A stretch of 34,507 bases of DNA. Origin: a virus. Its lineage: Duplodnaviria > Caudoviricetes. Below the pieces are notes generated by a model, which had not been told where the DNA came from, made no database searches, and saw only the letters and a list, made by a program, of their open reading frames with translations. Numbering within the stretch: position 1 is the stretch's first letter; each line of letters begins with the position of its first letter. Both the position numbers and the translations under genes were made by a program. Where the stretch lies: IMG/VR virus record IMGVR_UViG_3300044267_005327, positions 1 to 34,507 of that record; one strand, given 5' to 3'. Below, in pieces: positions 1-34,507 of this stretch.

Positions 1-42
1 GGACCCCCCTTAAGGCCCCAGATATCCAAAGAAACTGGCGTT

Positions 43-486
43 TCACCCTTCCACATCGTTGCCACCGACCACCTTTAAGACCGGCGAAGACTCCGACGAA
101 AGCGAGCGCACAGCCTCTAGATGCTCCCTATTAACGTCTGTTACGCGTATGTCCTGCTGCAGCTTATCCCCGTAATAACTCGGTGCCATTCGAGACGCTG
201 ACCACTTTAGCAAGTCTCCGGCAACCCGACCGATGTTTGGGTCAATCTTTCCAGCCAGCACACCCATCGCGATGTCACTAACCTGTTCGCCGTATCGGTC
301 ACCCCGCATCGAGCGGGCATCGTCATATGCCTGTTTAAAATCAGGGTCAGCTCGAAGCCATCTCTGAACCGACGTCATTGTCGGCATGTCTTCTTGTCGG
401 CAAATCGACCGCATCGATTTTCCGCTCGCTACCTGCTGGCATATCTTCTCCAACAACTGCGAACTCTTTTTCGGTTTCGCTGGCAT
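43..486 (-). CDS. terS: Terminase small subunit (Sf6/P22-like)
   Basis: N-terminal HTH 'ICQQVASGKSMRSICRQEDMPTMTSVQRWL...FKQAYDDAR' and C-terminal 'KWSASRMAPSYYGDK'; precedes terL on the circular map. Confidence 0.85.
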   Translation of the reverse strand: MPAKPKKSSQLLEKICQQVASGKSMRSICRQEDMPTMTSVQRWLRADPDFKQAYDDARSMRGDRYGEQVSDIAMGVLAGKIDPNIGRVAGDLLKWSASRMAPSYYGDKLQQDIRVTDVNREHLEAVRSLSSESSPVLKVVGGNDVEG

Positions 487-13861: not shown

Positions 13862-14566
13862 GTGATGAAAAGGACAAACAAAAAACGTGGACCGTCGTAT
13901 AAATTTAAGTCTTCCACTTTATCTGAGCAAGCCCACCGGGCGGCTGAACGATACGATCACACAAAAAAGTTTTGGGCGCTTAAAAAACGGCCATTTATTC
14001 GTCTCGCTGATACATTTGCATGGCGTAATCGCTATCAGATGATGGAACAGGCCTCTCAGGCGTTCGTTGCGATTGAAACCGGGGTGCCACAAGATGTGGG
14101 GCCGACGATCAGCGATTGGAAAAAATGCAGTGACAAAGCGAGTGTTGTAATTCGTCGTCTGTGTGCTTTGTCAATTTCTACGAGAGCAAGTTTTACCATC
14201 AGCGACTTAGAAGCGCGATTGCCGAGAGCTTATGCGTCTCGCAGGACCGTCCAAAACATTATTAATCGCGGGGAAGAGCTAGGATTAATTGAAAAAGAAA
14301 GCACCGACGTCTATTCGGTAACTGAGGCGTTTATAACCGAATTTAGTGATCGAAATTTAGTGAGGTTGCTAGACCCTGACATTGTGGCTTGGGCGCGGCA
14401 AATAGTTATGTTCGACGACATGATTAAGATTGCGAACACAACGGTGAAAAACGAGCAAATGGGGACACTTTTTGATTCGAATTTACGCACAATGTCAGAA
14501 CGCATTGATTCCGGCGATTACGATTCAGAAATAAAGTACGAACGCCCTCATAAAGACGACAAATAG
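13862..14566 (+). CDS. Winged-helix DNA-binding protein
   Basis: 'FTISDLEARL...SRRTVQNIINRGEELGLIEK' wHTH pattern; GAGG RBS. Confidence 0.65.
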   Translation: MMKRTNKKRGPSYKFKSSTLSEQAHRAAERYDHTKKFWALKKRPFIRLADTFAWRNRYQMMEQASQAFVAIETGVPQDVGPTISDWKKCSDKASVVIRRLCALSISTRASFTISDLEARLPRAYASRRTVQNIINRGEELGLIEKESTDVYSVTEAFITEFSDRNLVRLLDPDIVAWARQIVMFDDMIKIANTTVKNEQMGTLFDSNLRTMSERIDSGDYDSEIKYERPHKDDK

Positions 14567-23761: not shown

Positions 23762-25230
23762 CAGCGCAGACCAGTTGCCTGGGCGTCAACGTCCACACCT
23801 TGCGCCTGGCGCCAGTCGTCTGACAATTCCAGACGGATGCGGTGAAAGCGTCCTTCTGACCGAACTGGGCAAAAGCCCTCTGAGTTGATGGCAGACGCTG
23901 CCGTAAATGTGACGCCTTCATGTTGTAGCGTCCTGCTTCCAACTTTTGCCGAGATGGTCGGTGCAATCGTTCCACCGCTAACGTACGGAATAACGGTATT
24001 GACGATTGAGCGACGTCCAGTTTCAACCTGGAATTCTCCGGTATCAATTACCGCCGGCAACGTTGTTCCGGTAAAACTTTGGATTTTTTTGTCCTTACTT
24101 GCCGCGAAGAAAAATGATCCGCCAGTGAACATGCCGTCGTCCAAAGACGCAGGCAGACTGTCAATGCTACTACTAATTGCGTCGAGTTGCTCTAAAGTGT
24201 GGCCCCCAGTGAATAGTGGTGCGAGCGTGTCACAGTCGACCACGGCTCGAGACCATTTATTCAAAAAATGATTGTAGATTAGCAACTCGTCGTTTGTGCC
24301 ATCGACAGAATCGACTGATGGATATGCCCATATGACTATCTGTTGCAGAGGGTCAATCGCTGCCCTCATGTTGCCGCGCTCCGAATGCTTCAAGCGCCGG
24401 AAAAAAAAGTCATTTATTTTTTCTGCACCAATCGGCACGAGATCAGCGCCGCTAAGCATATAAAAACCGTCGTCCGAAAGAAAGAAAACTTGTTGCGCTC
24501 CAATGGAGGCGACCGATCCAGGGACGGCGCAGCCGCGAGACGTAATAATCTTCTCGAACTGATAGATCAGCGGAGCGCCGACAAACTGACCGCGAACGAT
24601 GCCTCGCTCAAATAGCGCTATCGCGTATTCGCCTCCGACCAATCCGGTGCAATCGCCTAAATCTGCTACATCTTGGAAGTCGGAGAGATTTGTTCCAGGC
24701 GTCCATCCGGTCGCAGAGTTGATTGCGGACCACCACAGCCTGTACGGTTTTGTACCGTCGCTGCTGTCGTTCGTGTAGCCGACCATCACCTGATCTCGGA
24801 CGATTGCGATGAATTTCGCCCGTGGCGGCGTGCCGGATAAATTTGCAAAATTACCGCCAGCGGCAACCGCGCTTGTCTGGATTTGGTTGTCAAAATTTGT
24901 CGCTAACAACGTTTCGCCAAATTGAACAAACCGCCAAATATTAGTGCCGCTGGTCGAATAGCCGCCGCCGACGCTTTTATCCGCAAGCGATGAATCGGTT
25001 GTATCAAAAATATAGAGTTTTCCTTTATCGCCGACATAAAGGGCGCTATTGCCATCATCATCTTTGCCCGCAAACATTCCGAGAATATTGTTGGTGGCGG
25101 CTCCACTGACCGGGGCGATGTTTTTGAGTGATCGATATCCTCGCACCGCTGGAATGACATTTTTCGCCTCAACAACACCCGCGTTTTCGAAGGCAGGTTG
25201 ATCCGGCGTAAAGTCGGCGAAATTTATCAC
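23761..25230 (-). CDS. Tail hub / nozzle protein (P22 gp10 / tail tubular B-like)
   Basis: 489 aa with beta-propeller-like composition; 'FADFTPDQP...AKNVIP'; position. Confidence 0.75.
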   Translation of the reverse strand: MINFADFTPDQPAFENAGVVEAKNVIPAVRGYRSLKNIAPVSGAATNNILGMFAGKDDDGNSALYVGDKGKLYIFDTTDSSLADKSVGGGYSTSGTNIWRFVQFGETLLATNFDNQIQTSAVAAGGNFANLSGTPPRAKFIAIVRDQVMVGYTNDSSDGTKPYRLWWSAINSATGWTPGTNLSDFQDVADLGDCTGLVGGEYAIALFERGIVRGQFVGAPLIYQFEKIITSRGCAVPGSVASIGAQQVFFLSDDGFYMLSGADLVPIGAEKINDFFFRRLKHSERGNMRAAIDPLQQIVIWAYPSVDSVDGTNDELLIYNHFLNKWSRAVVDCDTLAPLFTGGHTLEQLDAISSSIDSLPASLDDGMFTGGSFFFAASKDKKIQSFTGTTLPAVIDTGEFQVETGRRSIVNTVIPYVSGGTIAPTISAKVGSRTLQHEGVTFTAASAINSEGFCPVRSEGRFHRIRLELSDDWRQAQGVDVDAQATGLR

Positions 25231-26270
25231 GCTGCTAATCTCCAGATTTCGCTGTCAGCAGAAACCTCTGCCCAAGTTTCGCCGCCAGCAGAAACCTCTG
25301 TCCAAGTTTCGCCGCCGGCAGAAATGTCGCTCCACGTTTCACCGAGTTTTTCGGATGTTGCCGAAATCTCGTATGCCGTAGTCACCGTGCTAGACACAAC
25401 GGCGATGATTGAGGACGACGCCGAAGTCGTTGATGAAATTTCCGCAGCCACCGTCGAGGCGGCAGTTAGCTGGGGAGTTGGAGTATTTCCGCTAACCTCA
25501 ATCGGTGCGGTTGCCGACATCCCATGAAGATGCTGCGAGCTTGCCGAAGCGGTGAGCGCAATCTCAACGGAATCAGCAACGGTCTGAATGCGCTCTGCCG
25601 CAGCGCTTGTTGTCACCGCAATCGACGACGACGCAGACGCTGAGAAAATACGCTCCGATGCCGCGCTCGCGGTTACCGCAATTGCGGCACTTGCGGTGAC
25701 AAGACTAACGTCTCCGAAACTCGCATTCGCTGTGACCGATATGTCTGCCGATGCCGTGACGGATTTAATGCTCGTCGCGCTTGCCGATGAAGCAACTGCA
25801 ACATCGACGCTGGCGGCGACAGCTTGAACCCGTTGTGCCGACGCACTTTCGGTAAGCGCGATGGCAGCACTGCCGCTGGCGGCTTGAACGCGCTGCGCCG
25901 ACGCTGTCGTCGTCGCGGCCACTGCCGCCGTTCCGCTGACAGATTGAATGCGTTCGGCGGAGCCGCTCGCTGTAACGGCAATTGCAGCAGAGCCGGAAAC
26001 ATCAACGAGGACTTCGGTTGTCGCAGTAGCCGTCGCCGTTACGCTGATCGAAGCCGGCGTACCGTGACTAGCTGCGTCAAGAGATGACGCGAGGTCATCG
26101 ATGCCGACGCAAAAAGCGTCAAGCTGTTCCAGAGTCGGGCTTGCCCGAAAATTTCCGGTCAGGCGCAGCTTTCTGGTCGTCCAACCGGAGTTGTCGAGCG
26201 AAAGGTCTAGGCTGTCGAGGTCACCCCAAGCGTCGAGTTGGTCAAGATTGGGGCCGGTGATTTCCGGCAT
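25227..26270 (-). CDS. Ala/Ser/Thr-rich repetitive virion protein
   Basis: About 21-aa repeats (e.g. SGSAAIAVTASGSAERIQSV) and C-terminal 10-aa ETW-E/D-SAGG repeats. Confidence 0.7.
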   Translation of the reverse strand: MPEITGPNLDQLDAWGDLDSLDLSLDNSGWTTRKLRLTGNFRASPTLEQLDAFCVGIDDLASSLDAASHGTPASISVTATATATTEVLVDVSGSAAIAVTASGSAERIQSVSGTAAVAATTTASAQRVQAASGSAAIALTESASAQRVQAVAASVDVAVASSASATSIKSVTASADISVTANASFGDVSLVTASAAIAVTASAASERIFSASASSSIAVTTSAAAERIQTVADSVEIALTASASSQHLHGMSATAPIEVSGNTPTPQLTAASTVAAEISSTTSASSSIIAVVSSTVTTAYEISATSEKLGETWSDISAGGETWTEVSAGGETWAEVSADSEIWRLAA

Positions 26271-26273
26271 GAA

Positions 26274-26660
26274 TTAAGCAGCCGTCACCGTAAGATCGCC
26301 GGAATTGATTCGCAAAACATCGCCCGAGCCGATTGTTTTCGCGCTTGCGAACGCGCCATGGAGTAATAAATTGCCTCCTGACGCGGCGTCAAAAATGCCC
26401 CAAAATCCGATTGAACCCCACGATCCAGTCGCGGTCGGGAAAGTTACCGTCGCATTCGTTGCGGCAGAGGCGCTCGATGCAGCGGCGAATGTGATCGCCT
26501 GACGGGCATAGCCGCTTCCGCTTAATTCGGTTCCGCTTGCGTCGTCTCCGAAGCTGCCGGTCGATAGCCCAATCCTAACAGTTGACGGCATCGTGTAGCT
26601 GCCGGTTCCGAGAATGTGATCCAGTATCTCGTTTTCAAGATGATCGCTCATTGCGCTCAT
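26274..26660 (-). CDS. Virion structural protein (tail-associated)
   Basis: 'SDHLENEILDH...ELSGSGYARQAITF...FDAASGGNLL'. Confidence 0.75.
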   Translation of the reverse strand: MSAMSDHLENEILDHILGTGSYTMPSTVRIGLSTGSFGDDASGTELSGSGYARQAITFAAASSASAATNATVTFPTATGSWGSIGFWGIFDAASGGNLLLHGAFASAKTIGSGDVLRINSGDLTVTAA

Positions 26661-27600: not shown

Positions 27601-27627
27601 AAAAAAGGGGAGGCAAAAGCCTCCCCT
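27601..27627 (-). terminator. Intrinsic terminator after the major capsid gene
   Basis: Minus strand AGGGGAGGC-TTTT-GCCTCCCCT-TTTTT. Confidence 0.85.
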
Positions 27628-27652: not shown

Positions 27653-27896
27653 TTAAGACGTATTGAGATCAAGGACTGCTGCGTGTGCCTTTGGCGCACG
27701 AACAATCAATGTCCACTCCGACAAAATTGCGAATTGCGTCCGATCTCCAGTGGGCGCGACATCGCTCACGGAATACATCCGACCCGGCAAATGACCAATC
27801 GAGTAATGGTCACTGTCGATTAGAAATATTTCCGAATTAGACGCCTGTCGGTCAATGACAACATTCAACGTGCCGAAGTCGGTTAGGTACATAGAT
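27653..27896 (-). CDS. Major capsid protein, exon 2
   Basis: SMYLTDFGTLNVVIDR...EWTLIVRAPKAHA is the capsid C-terminus; in frame with exon 1 after intron removal. Confidence 0.9.
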
Positions 27897-28143
27897 CATT
27901 TGTGTTCGCCTTAGTTCGCGAAACTAAGACCGCTTCCGCTGCTGCGCGTCACCGCGCAGATCAGACCATATCATCGCCCCGAAGGGCGTCTGGCGCTTCG
28001 GCTGGGCTTCCAGCCTACTCCCCGAAGGGATGGTCGTTGCACCTTCCTCGTTAGAGGCTTGGCTCAGGATTGTCTATTTCCAGAGTTCCCCTGAGTTCAC
28101 CAGATTTTCGAGATTGATTTCTCAATCAAGCCGCATTCAGTTT
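27897..28143 (-). ncRNA. Group I self-splicing intron (IA-like, 247 nt, no ORF)
   Basis: 5' exon ends in U paired with G in P1 (CCGU/GCGG); terminal G at 27897; P3 UCUGGUG/CGCCAGA, P4 CUCAGG/CCUGAG, P7 A(C)GACCA/UGGUCU, J8/7 AUGAUA, plus P7.1, P7.2, P8 and P9 hairpins. Confidence 0.93.
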
Positions 28144-28850
28144 ACGGAACCGATCATGATGGCGTCTTGCGGTGCATTAGCCGTCATGTGCAGTTGGTTT
28201 GTCACCAGACTGCCGGAATTGAGGTCAGAAAACGCGACCTTATTCGCGGGAGAAACGACGAGCATGTCAGGTGTACCGCCGTCATCATAAGCCAGCTTCA
28301 TGGCATTATCGATGTCAGCTAGTGCAAGTGCGTCGTCAGTTCCCGACAAGGTGGCAGCGTCTGTTCCAGTTCCAGCCGAAGCCGACGAACCAGACTCAGC
28401 TACCACATTGGTGATCCACGACAGAAACTTTCCAGCTTTACGTGGATCGCTTCCGCTGCGGGCTTCGTTTTTAAACAGCGACTTGTCAATGTCGCGGCGC
28501 TGTTCCAATCCCTTTAAGACCTTCACATATGCAGACTCGCGGTCGCGCCCTGCTTTGTCCACGGTCTCCAAGGTACCGCTTACCTGTGCGGCTTGCACAG
28601 ATATTTGGTGGTGATTGCCGACACGGGTAGTGGCACTCGGGTTCACATAACTGTAGTCCGCACCTTCATTGACATGATTGTCGTCGGCGGCGGCTGTTAA
28701 TTCTTGAACCTGCCATTCGTGGAGTACACCTTTCGTTGTCTCCATTTTAGCGTTGCTTACCAGCGGGGTTTCAGCCGGGTCGATACGAGTGATTACATCA
28801 CTCAGGTCTTCCCGTTCGCCAACCGCTGCTGACGTGGCCCACGTAGCCAT
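28144..28850 (-). CDS. Major capsid protein, exon 1 (DUF5309/SU10-type; 316 aa spliced)
   Basis: 'GEREDLSDVITRIDPAETP...HEWQ...NEGAD...RRDIDKSL'; follows the scaffold gene. Confidence 0.92.
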
Positions 28851-30365: not shown

Positions 30366-32410
30366 TACTGCGTTCTCGGAAGATTAGTCGAAACGTCGAC
30401 GCCGCTGATTGCTTCGACGCCGCGCAACTCTGCCTCAAGCTGCATTTCGCGCATCCGCATCTGCATTTTCATTTCCATCTCTTGCCGTTTAATCTCCAAC
30501 TCGGCAGCAGCCTTCTCGCGCTTCATCTCAATCTCGGCCTGCAACTTCATGCGGTCGTTTTCAATCTCGGCTTGCGCCTTCGCTTTCTCGAGCGCGATGA
30601 CCTTGTCTTCGGGACTTTCAGATTGTTCCGCACGCTCTTTAATTTTCTGCTGCGTCTCCGGGTCGAGATTGTCGGGTGACAAAAAGAAAACGCTGCTGTC
30701 CTTAAAGCCGCTTAACTCGACAATCTTGCCGAGCGTGTCGCGGTATTGTTGCAACGTACAAAGCGGATTTATCACGCCGAGCTTGGTCAGGATTTCTTCT
30801 TGCTTGGCGGCAATCTGCGTTAGCACCGCAATGCGGCGGTCGCTGTCTCCGGTGCCTAAGCCGACTTCAACAATCGTATCGAATTCGGTATTCCAACGCT
30901 GGGGGTCCATCTCAACAAATTTATTGCGAAGCCGGATGACGCGAGATTGCTGCTGGTACTCCGTCACCAAATTAAGCACGCTTTTCATCAGATGCTTCAC
31001 GCCGGTCTCGGCAAAGACGCGAGCTATCATTTCAATCTTCTGTTGGCTCGCTGATATCGTAGCCGCTACCGCAGCCTTCGTACTCGACTGCAACGCGTCA
31101 GGGTCCAAACCCATCGACGCCTTCGTCAAACCAGTGCGGTTCTCTTTTACGTTATCCATATACTCAAGAAGCGGAAATGCTGCTTGACTGATTGACGGCG
31201 GCGAAATGGGTTGCACCATTCCCGGCGCTCTCATTCGCACGATGCCGCCGGGGCGATTTGTCGTCAAATCATCCAAATTTACCTGACCCTCAACAGCCGC
31301 AATTCTTGCGTTGTTTGTCAAGTACACGTTATCCAGTTGCTGGCGAATGAGCGACGACTTGATTAACTGACAGTCCTTAATCAATTCCGCAATTGAGCGC
31401 CCAACCATTCTGTGCGGCATTAAAATTGGCGAAACAACGGAGAATGGAATTTCTCCAAACGGCTCGTTTTTTACAACTTCATAAGAAGGGCCAATCGTAC
31501 AAACACGCCTTAATTCGGCAATTCCATCTCCATCATAATCGGAATGAATGTAGACCTCTGTATACAGAACACCCTGCTCACTCGGATCGTGCGAGCTATC
31601 CGCATCGCCACTCTCCAAGTCTTGGAACCGTGTCTGCTTTTCTCCAACCTCGTCAATTTCCGAATAGCCAGCATGCTCTTCAACCAACTCACGGTCATAA
31701 CCCATCGCAACCAAATCGCTCACGCTTAAGGTCGTGCGATGTGCCGCAAATCGGCAGTCGTCAATGCTCTTTGAGCGGCGATTAAAAAGAAACTCTTCCG
31801 GCGGAATGTTCTCGATGCGAACGCGACCGTCCTGTTTTGTCCGCTTGACACGGATGTCGAACACCAAAGGCATAATTCCGCCATCCGGCGCTTCGACTTC
31901 GCGACTCTCCTGCTCTAAAACTTCAAGGGCAGGATTAGAAAGCAACGCCGTCAACTCATCTTCTGTTAAGTCTTCATAAACCTCTTCGGAAACGCTCTCA
32001 CTTTCATCAAAATAGTGCTTCACCACACCCATCTTAAAGAGCAAAGCATCTTTAAAGAAATTATGAAGAATAACGAAGCCATTGTTGTCTGAGTTAAGTA
32101 TAAAATTAACGTATTCTGTTGCTTGGTTTGCCGCGTCAATGTCTTCTGGGCCGCGAGGCGCAAAGCGGACGAAGTCGCCCGAAGCGGTGAAAATCTTCAT
32201 CAGACTCGGAAGAATGCTCTCAATGACATCCGAGACCTCAGTCATCACAACCTGGGATCGACCTTTTTGCTCATTACCAAAAGGCTCGCCCATATAAAAA
32301 TCCATCGTTTCTACACGGTCAGCGGCCAGTTCCTGATCAGTGAAATTAATCGCTGACTGGATTTCGCTGCGGACGATAGATTGGAATTCGTCGTCGTCTT
32401 TTTTTGCCAT
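30365..32410 (-). CDS. Portal protein (P22/SU10-like)
   Basis: 681 aa; 'FYMGEPFGNE..GRSQVV', 'FKDALL.KMGVVK', 'ENIPPEEF'; long C-terminal coiled coil. Confidence 0.92.
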   Translation of the reverse strand: MAKKDDDEFQSIVRSEIQSAINFTDQELAADRVETMDFYMGEPFGNEQKGRSQVVMTEVSDVIESILPSLMKIFTASGDFVRFAPRGPEDIDAANQATEYVNFILNSDNNGFVILHNFFKDALLFKMGVVKHYFDESESVSEEVYEDLTEDELTALLSNPALEVLEQESREVEAPDGGIMPLVFDIRVKRTKQDGRVRIENIPPEEFLFNRRSKSIDDCRFAAHRTTLSVSDLVAMGYDRELVEEHAGYSEIDEVGEKQTRFQDLESGDADSSHDPSEQGVLYTEVYIHSDYDGDGIAELRRVCTIGPSYEVVKNEPFGEIPFSVVSPILMPHRMVGRSIAELIKDCQLIKSSLIRQQLDNVYLTNNARIAAVEGQVNLDDLTTNRPGGIVRMRAPGMVQPISPPSISQAAFPLLEYMDNVKENRTGLTKASMGLDPDALQSSTKAAVAATISASQQKIEMIARVFAETGVKHLMKSVLNLVTEYQQQSRVIRLRNKFVEMDPQRWNTEFDTIVEVGLGTGDSDRRIAVLTQIAAKQEEILTKLGVINPLCTLQQYRDTLGKIVELSGFKDSSVFFLSPDNLDPETQQKIKERAEQSESPEDKVIALEKAKAQAEIENDRMKLQAEIEMKREKAAAELEIKRQEMEMKMQMRMREMQLEAELRGVEAISGVDVSTNLPRTQ

Positions 32411-33681
32411 TAGTCTAGCAATCCTAATATTTCACCGTCCCGCTCCAGCATCTTCGTCCGGTCGAGAACGTCTTGGTCCCATATGGCATAGTTGCGCGAG
32501 CCTTCGCCTGCGCCTCGACTGCCTCGGTCAAGGTATTTCACGCCGGGGATGCCAGCTTCGCGGAGAGCGTCGGCGGTTTTATTTTCAGCAACTTCATAGA
32601 ATTGGCGGCGAACACTTACATCTGAACCAATCGGCCAATCCAAAGACCCAGACTTTTCAACTATGAGATTATAAGCCTGCTCGCCGGTAATAGATGACCG
32701 CAATTTGGTATCAGGGTACAATTTTTCTAAAATAAAAGTAACCTTGTCACCAACCGCACCTTGTTCACTCAACGGTGCATCCCAGTCGAGAGTTTTAGCG
32801 GCATCGGCGTCGGGGATGTCGAGCTTGTAGAGGGTGCCTTTGGGGTAGCGCTCTTCGATGAACCGCTTGTTTGCAATCATAAAGTCTGCCGCATTAGAAA
32901 AGTCGTCAGCAGTTTTTAATGCTGTCGGTACATCATCAGCATGCTTTAAGTTCACAACATTATCTATATAGACATCGACGTCTTGCATCCACTCGGGAAA
33001 CTCCGACGCTTTTTTAAGCGGCTTACCGAATGCCACACGTTCAGCCTGTTCACGAATCTCTGAAGCCACAGCACTTAAGTCATAAGCCGTGTCGTTTAAG
33101 TCTTGTCCGGTATAATGTGAGTAAAACCCTAAACGCTGAAGTTCTGTAGCGTCATGTGGAACATGCCCTTTCGCAAAATCCACCCGCTCTCCTTTGTAAA
33201 AAATATCTGGGTCTCTGGTTAAATCGTCTCGATATCTTGTCCCGACCCCTTTCGACTCTGCCGTATAAAACCCCGGCCCATAAGCTTGCGCACCCTCGCC
33301 CGTTCCCATCTTGTCAAGGCGGGGGCGTCCATATGGGAAGCCCGGTTCCGCTGCCCACCTGTGCGGCCCGCCGTGCCATACGTTCGCCGCCAAGCTGCCG
33401 CTTGGAGCGCGGCCCAACAAGCCGCCGCCTAGCATCGTGTCCAGCGCCATTTGGCTTACATCTGTCGGCGTGGCGCGGTAGCCTTGCGCGGCGGCGCCAG
33501 GCAACATTGCGCTTTTTATTAGATCAATCGCAACCTCCGGTACGCCAAACTCGACAACAGACATCTCTTCCGGCACCATCGTGTCGCCGGTTGGGCGATA
33601 CGCTTTGACAAGTGGCAAAAGCGTCGAACGATGATGGACGGCGTCGTCAAGCAAACCACGAACGTTTGGCGTGTCAGTCAC
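32410..33681 (-). CDS. ADP-ribosyltransferase-like (polyvalent-protein ART-type) domain protein
   Basis: 'VWHGGPH...MGTGEGAQAYGPGFYTAE' and 'LREAGIPGVKYLD.GSR....SRNYAIWD'. Confidence 0.65.
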   Translation of the reverse strand: MTDTPNVRGLLDDAVHHRSTLLPLVKAYRPTGDTMVPEEMSVVEFGVPEVAIDLIKSAMLPGAAAQGYRATPTDVSQMALDTMLGGGLLGRAPSGSLAANVWHGGPHRWAAEPGFPYGRPRLDKMGTGEGAQAYGPGFYTAESKGVGTRYRDDLTRDPDIFYKGERVDFAKGHVPHDATELQRLGFYSHYTGQDLNDTAYDLSAVASEIREQAERVAFGKPLKKASEFPEWMQDVDVYIDNVVNLKHADDVPTALKTADDFSNAADFMIANKRFIEERYPKGTLYKLDIPDADAAKTLDWDAPLSEQGAVGDKVTFILEKLYPDTKLRSSITGEQAYNLIVEKSGSLDWPIGSDVSVRRQFYEVAENKTADALREAGIPGVKYLDRGSRGAGEGSRNYAIWDQDVLDRTKMLERDGEILGLLD

Positions 33682-33901: not shown

Positions 33902-34507
33902 TCACACAACAAAACTGGTGTCTGGCTCAAAATCCTGAGTCCAGCCGTACTTCAAACCATGTGCGCCAATCACGGCATTGCTGGCAAAAGTCAGGCAAAA
34001 CGCATCCGCCATGTCGGGACTCGCAATCCCGCGCTTCCGCAACTCATCCTTACTCTCAACCTTAATCTTGCCAGCACTCGTAAACTGAAATCGCGGAGCC
34101 GCCATCTCAGCCACAAAAGCACCATCATCAGGTATCCGGCAGTCCTTCGCCTCAAACCACTCTCGGCTGCGATACCAAAGCTCGTCCCTTAAACGCATGT
34201 ATTTCTGCGCCATACTTGGCGACTCAGCGACGTTTATGCCGCGAGCGGGCAAATTTAACTCAATCAATCGGTCAGTCGTTCCGCTACCAATTCCAATCGA
34301 GTCCACCAAAATCTCAACCGGACGTTCGTCGTGGTTAGCCGCCTCGTACTCATTGTGAATAATGCCAGCTAACTCCATCGTGGACTTGTCGCGCCACGTT
34401 TTTATTGGCTCCAAAAGAACCGAACCCCGACGCTTCGCCAATGCCGACTTGTCACTGCCATATCTTGCACAGTCAACTCCCCACACAACCGGAGCGATGT
34501 TTGACTC
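33902..34507 (-). CDS. terL: Terminase large subunit, C-terminal nuclease domain (5' truncated by window edge)
   Basis: 'WGVDCARYGSDKS', 'VDSIGIGSG' and 'ESKDELRKRGIASPDMADA'; frame is open to the window end. Confidence 0.92.
   Translation of the reverse strand, partial: ESNIAPVVWGVDCARYGSDKSALAKRRGSVLLEPIKTWRDKSTMELAGIIHNEYEAANHDERPVEILVDSIGIGSGTTDRLIELNLPARGINVAESPSMAQKYMRLRDELWYRSREWFEAKDCRIPDDGAFVAEMAAPRFQFTSAGKIKVESKDELRKRGIASPDMADAFCLTFASNAVIGAHGLKYGWTQDFEPDTSFVV

What the first reader, a model, noticed from the sequence alone, without database searches (positions are those of the whole stretch)
27897..28143. ORF-less group I intron interrupting the major capsid protein gene
Seen: the capsid gene is split into 237-aa and 79-aa ORFs. 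Removing 28143-27897 joins GGT TCC GT|A TCT ATG TAC in frame (IMIGSVSMYLTDFG), giving 316 aa. The insert follows an exon U, ends in G, and folds into P1 (U-G wobble), P2 (GAAA loop), P3, P4-P6, P7 with a bulged C, P7.1 (UUCG), P7.2, P8 (UUCG), P9 (GUGA) and a further 3' hairpin. Known: extra stems between P7 and P3' typify subgroup IA, and described phage introns lie mostly in DNA-metabolism genes. Inference: a TGA lies 4 nt into the intron, so capsid production depends on splicing. This could tie virion output to guanosine/Mg2+ status, or the intron may simply be a homing relic.
Basis: partly seen in the sequence, partly recalled or inferred. Interest (0 to 1): 0.9.

Follow-up and report, generated by a model that had tools for sequence, protein, structure and literature searches.

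The report
Endonuclease-free intron in phage capsid gene
A 247-base group I intron with no endonuclease gene splits this phage's only major capsid gene and is likely removed by self-splicing; related capsid genes carry dozens of such introns at 14 sites, which likely spread as selfish passengers rather than acting as a switch on virus production.

Summary
Confirmed. Bases 28143-27897 (minus strand) are a group IA2 intron (Rfam 78 bits, cut-off 50). One short metatranscriptome contig reads exon 1 into exon 2 (weak: 8 bases past the shared base). The regulatory idea is not supported: 82 of 117 distinct related capsid genes have no intron and near-identical phages differ in presence. The larger picture: this capsid gene family holds at least 45 ORF-less introns, 14 sites in all, up to three per gene, and none elsewhere in 26 records searched. 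This intron is 85-96% identical to copies in capsid genes only about 67% identical, with short converted flanks, so it moved sideways; no endonuclease was found. Sister introns sit at sites with similar exon ends. Four of 7 same-site introns end the unspliced product in Ala-Ala; this lineage lost that tail. Capsid-gene introns (crAss-like phages) and ORF-less phage introns are in print, and this scan noted capsid introns before in at least 82 other genomes.

The parts
28144..28850 (-). Exon 1 of the SU10-type major capsid protein gene (codons 1-235 plus 2 nt); ends in the U of the P1 wobble pair
   Evidence: PF17236 E 8.7e-45, phrog_1328 E 1.3e-48
27897..28143 (-). Group IA2 intron, 247 nt, no ORF; after CDS nt 707 (codon 236, phase 2)
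   Evidence: Rfam RF00028 78.2 bits; cut points
27653..27896 (-). Exon 2 (last 80 codons and stop)
   Evidence: PF17236 E 1e-15, phrog_1328 E 8.5e-15 for the 79-aa ORF
28131..28147 (-). P1: exon 28147-28144 plus 28143 paired with internal guide 28135-28131; U28144-G28134 wobble marks the 5' splice site
   Evidence: invariant in 7 of 7
28137..28139 (-). In-frame TGA at intron nt 5-7; unspliced RNA gives a 237-aa product ending Val-Asn
28112..28127 (-). P2 with GAAA loop
   Evidence: 3 of 6 pairs compensatory
27989..28104 (-). P3 (28104-28098 with 27995-27989), enclosing P4 (28095-28090/28068-28063), P5 (28084-28073), P6 and P6a (28062-28042)
   Evidence: compensatory P3 and P4 variants across sites visible
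27963..28037 (-). P7 (28037-28031 with 27968-27963), bulged C28036, G28035-C27964 pair at the guanosine-site position
   Evidence: role of the pair from established group I knowledge
28000..28030 (-). P7.1 (28030-28019), GUA linker (28018-28016), P7.2 (28015-28000): IA2 signature
27975..27988 (-). P8 with UUCG loop
27897..27961 (-). P9.0 (27961-27960/27899-27898), P9 (27959-27942), P9.1 (27939-27932), P9.2 (27928-27910), terminal G27897
   Evidence: P9: 5 of 6 pairs compensatory in the main helix

Best explanation
This is a compact group IA2 intron in the phage's only major capsid gene, likely self-splicing and likely a selfish, near-neutral passenger rather than a regulator. Steps: (1) shown: intact ribozyme anatomy and exact splice sites. 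(2) Inferred from family membership: a guanosine attacks after U28144 and exon 1 then attacks after G27897, restoring the 316-aa frame; one RNA contig has the ligated form. (3) From the literature: the stop at intron nt 5-7 releases ribosomes before the ribozyme core. (4) Shown: this intron occurs at the same site in distantly related capsid genes, almost unchanged, with a short stretch of donor-type exon around it. Inferred: it travels by DNA gene conversion in co-infected cells or against a prophage, most likely driven by an endonuclease supplied in trans by a phage not in my sample (about 45%; none was found). (5) Inferred: new sites in the capsid gene were colonised by guide-directed reverse splicing into the abundant capsid mRNA. 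(6) Shown as a pattern, function inferred: the ancestor of this intron gave the unspliced product an Ala-Ala end, a possible ClpXP tag; this lineage replaced it with an earlier stop. Odds by step: intron and boundaries 0.98; splices in vivo 0.9; passenger rather than switch 0.85.
For: Intron. RNA: in metatranscriptome X1 a 151-nt contig lies on 28143-28285 with no mismatch and its 8-nt loose end equals the exon-2 bases that follow the shared base; a second contig covers 27709-27888 with no mismatch; these are the only 2 records laid on 19.9 kb. Passenger: 35 of 117 distinct full-length genes carry 1-3 introns, 82 none; presence differs between alleles 93-97% identical, including at this site (L090 vs L015/L016; L041 vs L101). 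Lateral spread: same-site introns form one clade (100/100) while their 7 host proteins need 7 changes on the capsid tree (quick tree); intron identity to 6 carriers 85-96%, exon identity 66-69%, third positions 34-41%. Co-conversion: L041 vs L101 differ at 8 of 42 bases round the site but 28 of 948 overall (p 1e-5); 6 of 19 carrier/non-carrier pairs have p<0.05; co-conversion marks DNA homing (PMC2988022 passages). Sites lie in conserved stretches (p 0.0016). Guide-directed moves: nearest-relative sites share 2.6 of 4 exon-end bases against 1.3 for all pairs (permutation p 0.001; Mantel p 0.02; core only, guide excluded). Ala-Ala: in frame 22 of 45, off frame 2 of 90 (both are relics in this lineage); length changes before the core are multiples of 3 in 9 of 9 site-344 introns and the last two Ala codons vary only at the third base; the three early-stop introns nest inside Ala-Ala carriers (100/94).
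Against: No endonuclease was found: none beside the capsid gene in 181 loci (motif scan and ORF clusters); HNH_3, HNH and GIY-YIG 0 of 26 records, phrog_59 1 of 26 (weak, E 6e-4, in an intron-less record); none named among 67 extra proteins, many of which have no family. 13 of 19 pairs show no excess of flank differences, and L015/L016 are intron-less yet have carrier-type flanks, so an intron-less allele could also give the RNA contig; that contig has depth 2 and only 8 informative bases, and no raw reads were available. For this site the nearest core by identity is site 344 with only 1 of 4 matching exon bases. Against the tag idea: this intron lacks it, 6 of 12 sites never show it, sites are not independent, and 2 of 11 ordinary gene families here also end in Ala-Ala. 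The P9.2 loop has C at 27919 region where the six other same-site introns have A, a possible mild defect.
Confidence: 0.6

Rival explanations
1. Endonuclease-free spread: the excised ribozyme reverse-splices into capsid mRNA of co-infecting phages and is fixed in DNA through a host reverse transcriptase and recombination; the high level of capsid mRNA explains why only this gene is hit.
For: All 22 Rfam group I hits in 26 records (about 704 kb) are the capsid introns, none in the longer portal or other genes (coordinates matched by hand); 45 of 45 introns are 208-285 nt and further pattern hits are short too; sister sites share exon ends; no nuclease found.
Against: Flank differences reach about 15 bases into exon 2, beyond P1/P10, which reverse splicing into the recipient RNA cannot make; no reverse transcriptase was named in the 50 plus 67 proteins scanned; PMC3984707 (passage) says the pathway lacks direct experimental evidence. 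15 of the 26 records were chosen for having capsid introns and 16 are under 90% complete or unrated.
Confidence: 0.2
2. Decayed homing intron: it once carried its own endonuclease, spread, and lost the gene.
For: Co-conversion and conserved target sites fit homing; 12 of 80 ORFs upstream of similar cores elsewhere are endonucleases.
Against: No endonuclease gene or remnant in any of 45 introns at 12 sites; all loops are short; site-specific scans for three sites returned no long member among the capsid loci examined (L521 is cut by its contig end); 92-96% identity between distant hosts implies movement in the ORF-less state or many parallel clean losses.
Confidence: 0.1
3. Regulatory switch: splicing ties capsid output to GTP or Mg2+ status.
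For: Capsid synthesis does need splicing; group I splicing needs guanosine and Mg2+; the idea is in print for other phage genes (PMC11878797 discussion).
Against: 82 of 117 related genes lack any intron and near-identical phages differ; 14 interchangeable sites; no riboswitch family above cut-off in the window; the early stop is a general feature.
Confidence: 0.07
4. Not functional: dead intron, pseudogene or assembly artefact.
For: Weak P10; one changed base in the conserved P9.2 loop.
Against: Three other contigs carry the identical intron; both exons are intact; no second capsid gene among the 50 ORFs scanned; compensatory changes; ligated RNA contig.
Confidence: 0.03

Closest known systems
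Group IA2 phage introns (T4 td/nrdB/nrdD, phiI/W31, Pf-WMP3, Bastillevirinae; Rfam RF00028)
   Same: Core P3-P7, P7.1-GUA-P7.2, exon U in P1, terminal G, early in-frame stop.
   Different: No endonuclease ORF; host gene is the capsid, whereas the 45 Bastillevirinae introns lie in DNA polymerase, terminase, thymidylate synthase and ribonucleotide reductase and 32 of 45 carry a nuclease.
Group I introns in the major capsid gene of crAss-like phages (Yutin et al. 2021, PMC7886860; passages seen)
   Same: Capsid gene interrupted, several introns per gene.
   Different: Those were found through intron-encoded protein domains in 100-190 kb genomes with introns in many genes; here a 35-kb podophage group, ORF-less introns, capsid gene only.
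Short group I introns of Jug jumbo phages (PMC12880540; passages seen)
   Same: Short (about 206 nt on average), numerous, splicing shown by metatranscriptome reads.
   Different: Jug genomes hold hundreds of mostly stand-alone homing endonucleases and introns in terL, nrdD and others; none was found in the 26 records here.
Staphylococcus phage Twort orf142 introns
   Same: Introns in a late structural gene (tail tube per PMC11878797); that there are three, ORF-less and IA2 is recalled and echoed by scan notes, not read in a paper.
   Different: Different gene and phage; no population-level spread described in what I read.
Collaborative / trans homing (free-standing endonuclease plus ORF-less intron; T4 mobE; PMC3984707 section 12, PMC2988022 passages)
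   Same: ORF-less intron, conserved target, co-converted flanks.
   Different: The defining partner nuclease was sought and not found.

Membership tests
Group I intron | Covariance-model match above the curated cut-off | tested here: met
   78.2 bits vs 50, model positions 1-253
Group I intron | Exon-terminal U paired with guide G in P1; terminal G | tested here: met
   U28144-G28134, G27897; U/G cut best-scoring for 34 of 35 distinct introns
Group I intron | P3-P7 pseudoknot core with bulge and G-C pair in P7; P4-P6 domain | tested here: met
Group I intron | Removal restores the host reading frame | tested here: met
   316 aa, no gaps against intron-less L008, L009, L010, L067
Group I intron | Ligated exons in RNA | tested here: inconclusive
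   One contig, depth 2, 8 informative bases; an intron-less allele is not excluded
Group I intron | Guanosine-dependent self-splicing in vitro | not testable with these tools
   bench assay
Subgroup IA2 | P7.1 and P7.2 between P7 and P3', linked by G-U-A | tested here: met
   28030-28000, linker 28018-28016; criterion from PMC3428280 passage
Subgroup IA2 | Best score to a subgroup-specific (GISSD) model | not testable with these tools
   only RF00028 is held
Self-mobile homing intron | Intron-encoded homing endonuclease | tested here: not met
   longest ATG frame 38 aa; 247 nt
Collaborative / trans homing system | Free-standing endonuclease linked to the intron and cutting the intron-less allele | tested here: not met
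   none found; LAGLIDADG, PD-(D/E)xK and EDxHD models were not searched genome-wide
Collaborative / trans homing system | Co-conversion of exon flanks | tested here: met
   2 of 5 site-707 pairs significant, 6 of 19 overall
Allosteric (riboswitch-controlled) group I intron | Aptamer next to the 5' splice site | tested here: not met
   no riboswitch family near the intron down to E 1
ssrA-like C-terminal degron on the unspliced product | Product ends in Ala-Ala | tested here: not met
   ends Val-Asn here; met in 4 of 7 same-site introns
SU10-type major capsid protein (PF17236, phrog_1328) | Profile match of both exons and portal-scaffold-capsid-adaptor order | tested here: met
   PDB 9ny2 E 2e-37 and 7z45

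The most novel reading that the evidence does not exclude
A family of protein-free group I introns that colonises one gene, the capsid gene, at 14 or more sites and moves between distant phages with no homing endonuclease at all: natural evidence that group I introns spread by guide-directed reverse splicing into the most abundant late mRNA, with an intron-encoded Ala-Ala tag that disposes of truncated capsid protein and is lost when an earlier stop arises.
Probability: 0.2. Interest if true: 0.85.

Novelty: new member of a known kind. Interest (0 to 1): 0.45.

Why it matters
Practically, about 30% of the capsid genes sampled in this phage group are split, and standard annotation breaks them (GenBank phage C72C1 lists two head-protein pieces and three spurious ORFs over an unrecognised intron), which affects capsid-based phylogeny and abundance markers. 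Conceptually, the family offers many natural carrier/non-carrier pairs at 14 sites in one gene, which makes two old questions testable: how ORF-less group I introns spread, and whether reverse splicing creates new sites. The single intron by itself is ordinary.

Tried and rejected
Neighbouring endonuclease: extra ORFs near the capsid gene were shadow frames or low-complexity proteins (judged by eye and a motif scan, not all by profile). Genome-wide HNH_3, HNH, GIY-YIG, phrog_59: nothing convincing. ORF 13862-14566 as a hidden nuclease: no atlas hit of 0.9 or more. Host: no tRNA in the window; four GTDB hits are short contigs in MAGs of different taxa and do not fix a host; nearest named phages are 56% (C72C1, no host given) and 42% or less. 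AlphaFold on a 9-sequence alignment gave mean pLDDT 31.7 and was not used. Promoter/terminator scan uninformative. Run X2 holds only relatives. No intron cover in X1 is not evidence of anything. Core-less mini-introns: no insert between 15 and 208 nt in the loci. Rows dropped: L229/L347 false cut from a damaged exon 1 (its site-707 intron was kept); distant loci under 55% identity; 2 of 82 duplicate ORFs; 11 of 71 duplicate or replication proteins. The careful capsid tree did not finish; the quick tree was used and no one-clade test was run. Paper searches (listings only unless named) showed no paper on introns in SU10/HTVC010P-type capsid genes or on Ala-Ala tails; subscription journals are largely missing, the supplement of PMC11878797 (its Table S1 lists known phage introns) could not be read, and the crAss and Jug supplements were not opened, so capsid cases may be listed there.

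Full report
Setting. The window is a 97% complete virus record of a temperate podophage: integrase, repressor pair, primase-helicase, Sak4-like annealase, and an SU10-type head module of portal, scaffold, capsid and adaptor. Both capsid ORFs hit PF17236 and phrog_1328 in successive parts of the profile, and no other capsid gene was found among the 50 ORFs scanned. The host is unknown; the only RNA match is a seawater metatranscriptome.

Observation. Rfam RF00028 scores 78.2 bits. Removing 28143-27897 gives 316 aa that align without gaps to intron-less relatives at 76-82%, and this U/G cut is the best-scoring one against an independent relative. I placed every helix and counted pairs on 7 same-site introns: 97% of cells pair, 16 of 73 pairs are compensatory, slid controls pair 28-41%. 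P7.1 and P7.2 are joined by G-U-A, the IA2 criterion given in PMC3428280 (passage).

Splicing evidence. In run X1 a 151-nt contig matches exon 1 without error up to the base shared by intron and exon 2 and continues with 8 bases of exon 2; a second contig matches exon 2 without error. Nothing else of the phage was laid over 19.9 kb. The three other DNA copies of this allele all carry the intron and the next nearest capsid gene is about 72% identical. Against: one contig of depth 2, no raw reads, and intron-less alleles with carrier-type flanks exist in another lineage. I count it as weak support.

The family. Of 117 distinct full-length related capsid genes (from 220 copies), 35 carry introns: 22 one, 8 two, 5 three (the sample is not random, since one search kept the best 80 hits and aimed at this site). 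There are 45 distinct introns at 12 sites, all 208-285 nt; two further sites appear in L502 and in GenBank phage C72C1. In 26 whole records the 22 Rfam hits are exactly the capsid introns. A core motif taken from this family matches about 6300 IMG/VR stretches; of 80 upstream ORFs scanned from that sample, 14 were capsid proteins (7 of this family), 13 nucleic-acid enzymes, 6 other structural, 12 endonucleases, 35 unassigned (the motif is biased to this family and some ORFs may not be the true exon). Capsid introns are therefore common in nature.

Movement. Presence differs among alleles 93-97% identical. The 7 site-707 introns are one clade, but their hosts are scattered over the capsid tree, with intron identity 85-96% against third-position exon identity 34-41%. 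All 6 distinct carriers share the same 8 exon bases before the site, against 3 of 94 non-carriers; part of this is forced by P1. L041 and L101, identical in protein, differ at 8 of 42 bases round the site and 28 of 948 overall, reaching beyond P1/P10; 6 of 19 pairs show such an excess, 13 do not. This is the co-conversion mark of DNA homing (PMC2988022 passages), yet no endonuclease was found in the introns, beside the gene, or in 26 records for four profiles. I commit to a nuclease acting in trans from an unsampled phage as the likeliest driver, at about 45%, with plain recombination, an RNA route or a lost nuclease as alternatives. For new sites, related cores sit at similar exon ends more than chance allows (p 0.001), the same kind of circumstantial evidence cited for reverse splicing in rDNA (PMC3984707 passage); this site itself does not show it by nearest identity, although the tree places it, with weak support, next to the site-228 and site-354 introns, whose exon ends are alike.

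The early stop and the Ala-Ala tail. A stop just inside the intron is general (PMC3073962 passage). A scan note (e1-5838823) suggested looking at the ends of unspliced products. Here 22 of 45 end in Ala-Ala in frame, at 6 of 12 sites, against 2 of 90 off frame; at site 344 four length classes all keep the frame; 6 of 7 SU10-type ORFs in the background sample end so, against 0 of 7 other capsid families and 2 of 19 other host genes. That C-terminal Ala-Ala is read by ClpXP is recalled, not tested. This intron does not have the tail: L090 has a stop before it, and the window, L292 and L229 have a stop plus a one-base shorter loop that leaves the tail out of frame; these three rows nest inside tail-bearing relatives. 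So the tail is ancestral at this site and dispensable. Also against: 2 of 11 ordinary gene families in these loci end in Ala-Ala, and the sites are not independent.

The switch idea. Capsid synthesis needs splicing, but a switch should be kept at one place across the group; instead 70% of the genes have none and the rest use 14 places. No aptamer is seen. I give it 7%.

Literature seen. PMC7886860 (passages): capsid-gene group I introns in crAss-like phages. [quoted passage not shown] PMC11878797 (first part, passages, discussion; supplement unreadable): described phage introns mostly in DNA-metabolism genes; Twort orf142 is a tail tube gene. PMC3984707 (passages, section 12), PMC2988022, PMC3073962, PMC3428280, PMC6487183, PMC11835236 (passages). 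Nine searches listed no paper on this capsid family's introns or on Ala-Ala tails. The scan's own notes hold 94 findings on capsid group I introns in at least 82 other genomes, none on look-alike sequence.

Verdict. A real, well-formed IA2 intron, a new member of a known kind. The interest lies in the family: capsid-only, ORF-less, laterally mobile, no driver in sight. Interest 0.45; the endonuclease-free reading has about 20% and would deserve 0.85.

Noticed in passing
L492:5322-5572 (GenBank OQ984150.1, phage C72C1): Unannotated 251-nt group I intron in the capsid gene after CDS nt 322 (Rfam 81.8 bits); the record shows two head-protein pieces and three small opposite-strand ORFs instead.
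   Followed up: partly
window 26274-26660 (-) and 25227-26270 (-): Two adjacent virion genes end in Ala-Ala, as do 41 of 51 and 31 of 45 distinct relatives; none of nine other gene families does so commonly.
   Followed up: partly
capsid CDS nt 707 and 726: Two intron sites 19 nt apart; no gene or 94 carries both. Three site-707 carriers have exon-2 codons like those just upstream of site-726 introns, which could reflect one shared nuclease target.
   Followed up: no
L276 site 238 vs L101/L104 site 175: Sister introns (core identity 0.85) at two sites with the same last five exon bases, both keeping the same Ala-Ala-ending tail in frame.
   Followed up: yes
L111 site 219: The intron starts with a stop codon and the exon itself ends in Ala-Ala; the L502 intron at this site follows Thr-Ala.
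   Followed up: partly
window 27916-27922 (-), P9.2 loop: One base differs (C for A) from the loop motif shared by the other six same-site introns and most of the family; identical in L001-L003, so not an assembly error.
   Followed up: no
window 27601-27626 (-): G+C-rich 8-bp hairpin followed by a run of T just after the capsid stop: terminator-like by eye; the consensus scan did not list it.
   Followed up: no
L388 (whole locus): A distant SU10-type capsid gene with four intron core motifs within 1.4 kb; two upstream frames end in Leu-Ala-Ala.
   Followed up: partly
window 32410-33681 (-) and the portal-scaffold interval of relatives: Variable, mostly unassigned genes of 140-890 aa sit before or after the portal gene in many relatives, in intron-bearing and intron-less phages alike.
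   Followed up: partly
hits H5, H8, H9, H11: The intron core matches 213 named phage records, over terminase, DNA polymerase or unannotated stretches (DSS3_VP1, Ralstonia BOESR1, Vibrio and Xanthomonas phages); some may be unannotated introns.
   Followed up: no
window 1-486 and 33902-34507: Small terminase at one end and the 3' part of the large terminase at the other: the record is a circular permutation lacking the start of terL.
   Followed up: no
L229:1375-1465: Exon 1 lacks about 15 codons with a frame shift, an assembly error or a broken allele, beside an intact site-707 intron.
   Followed up: no
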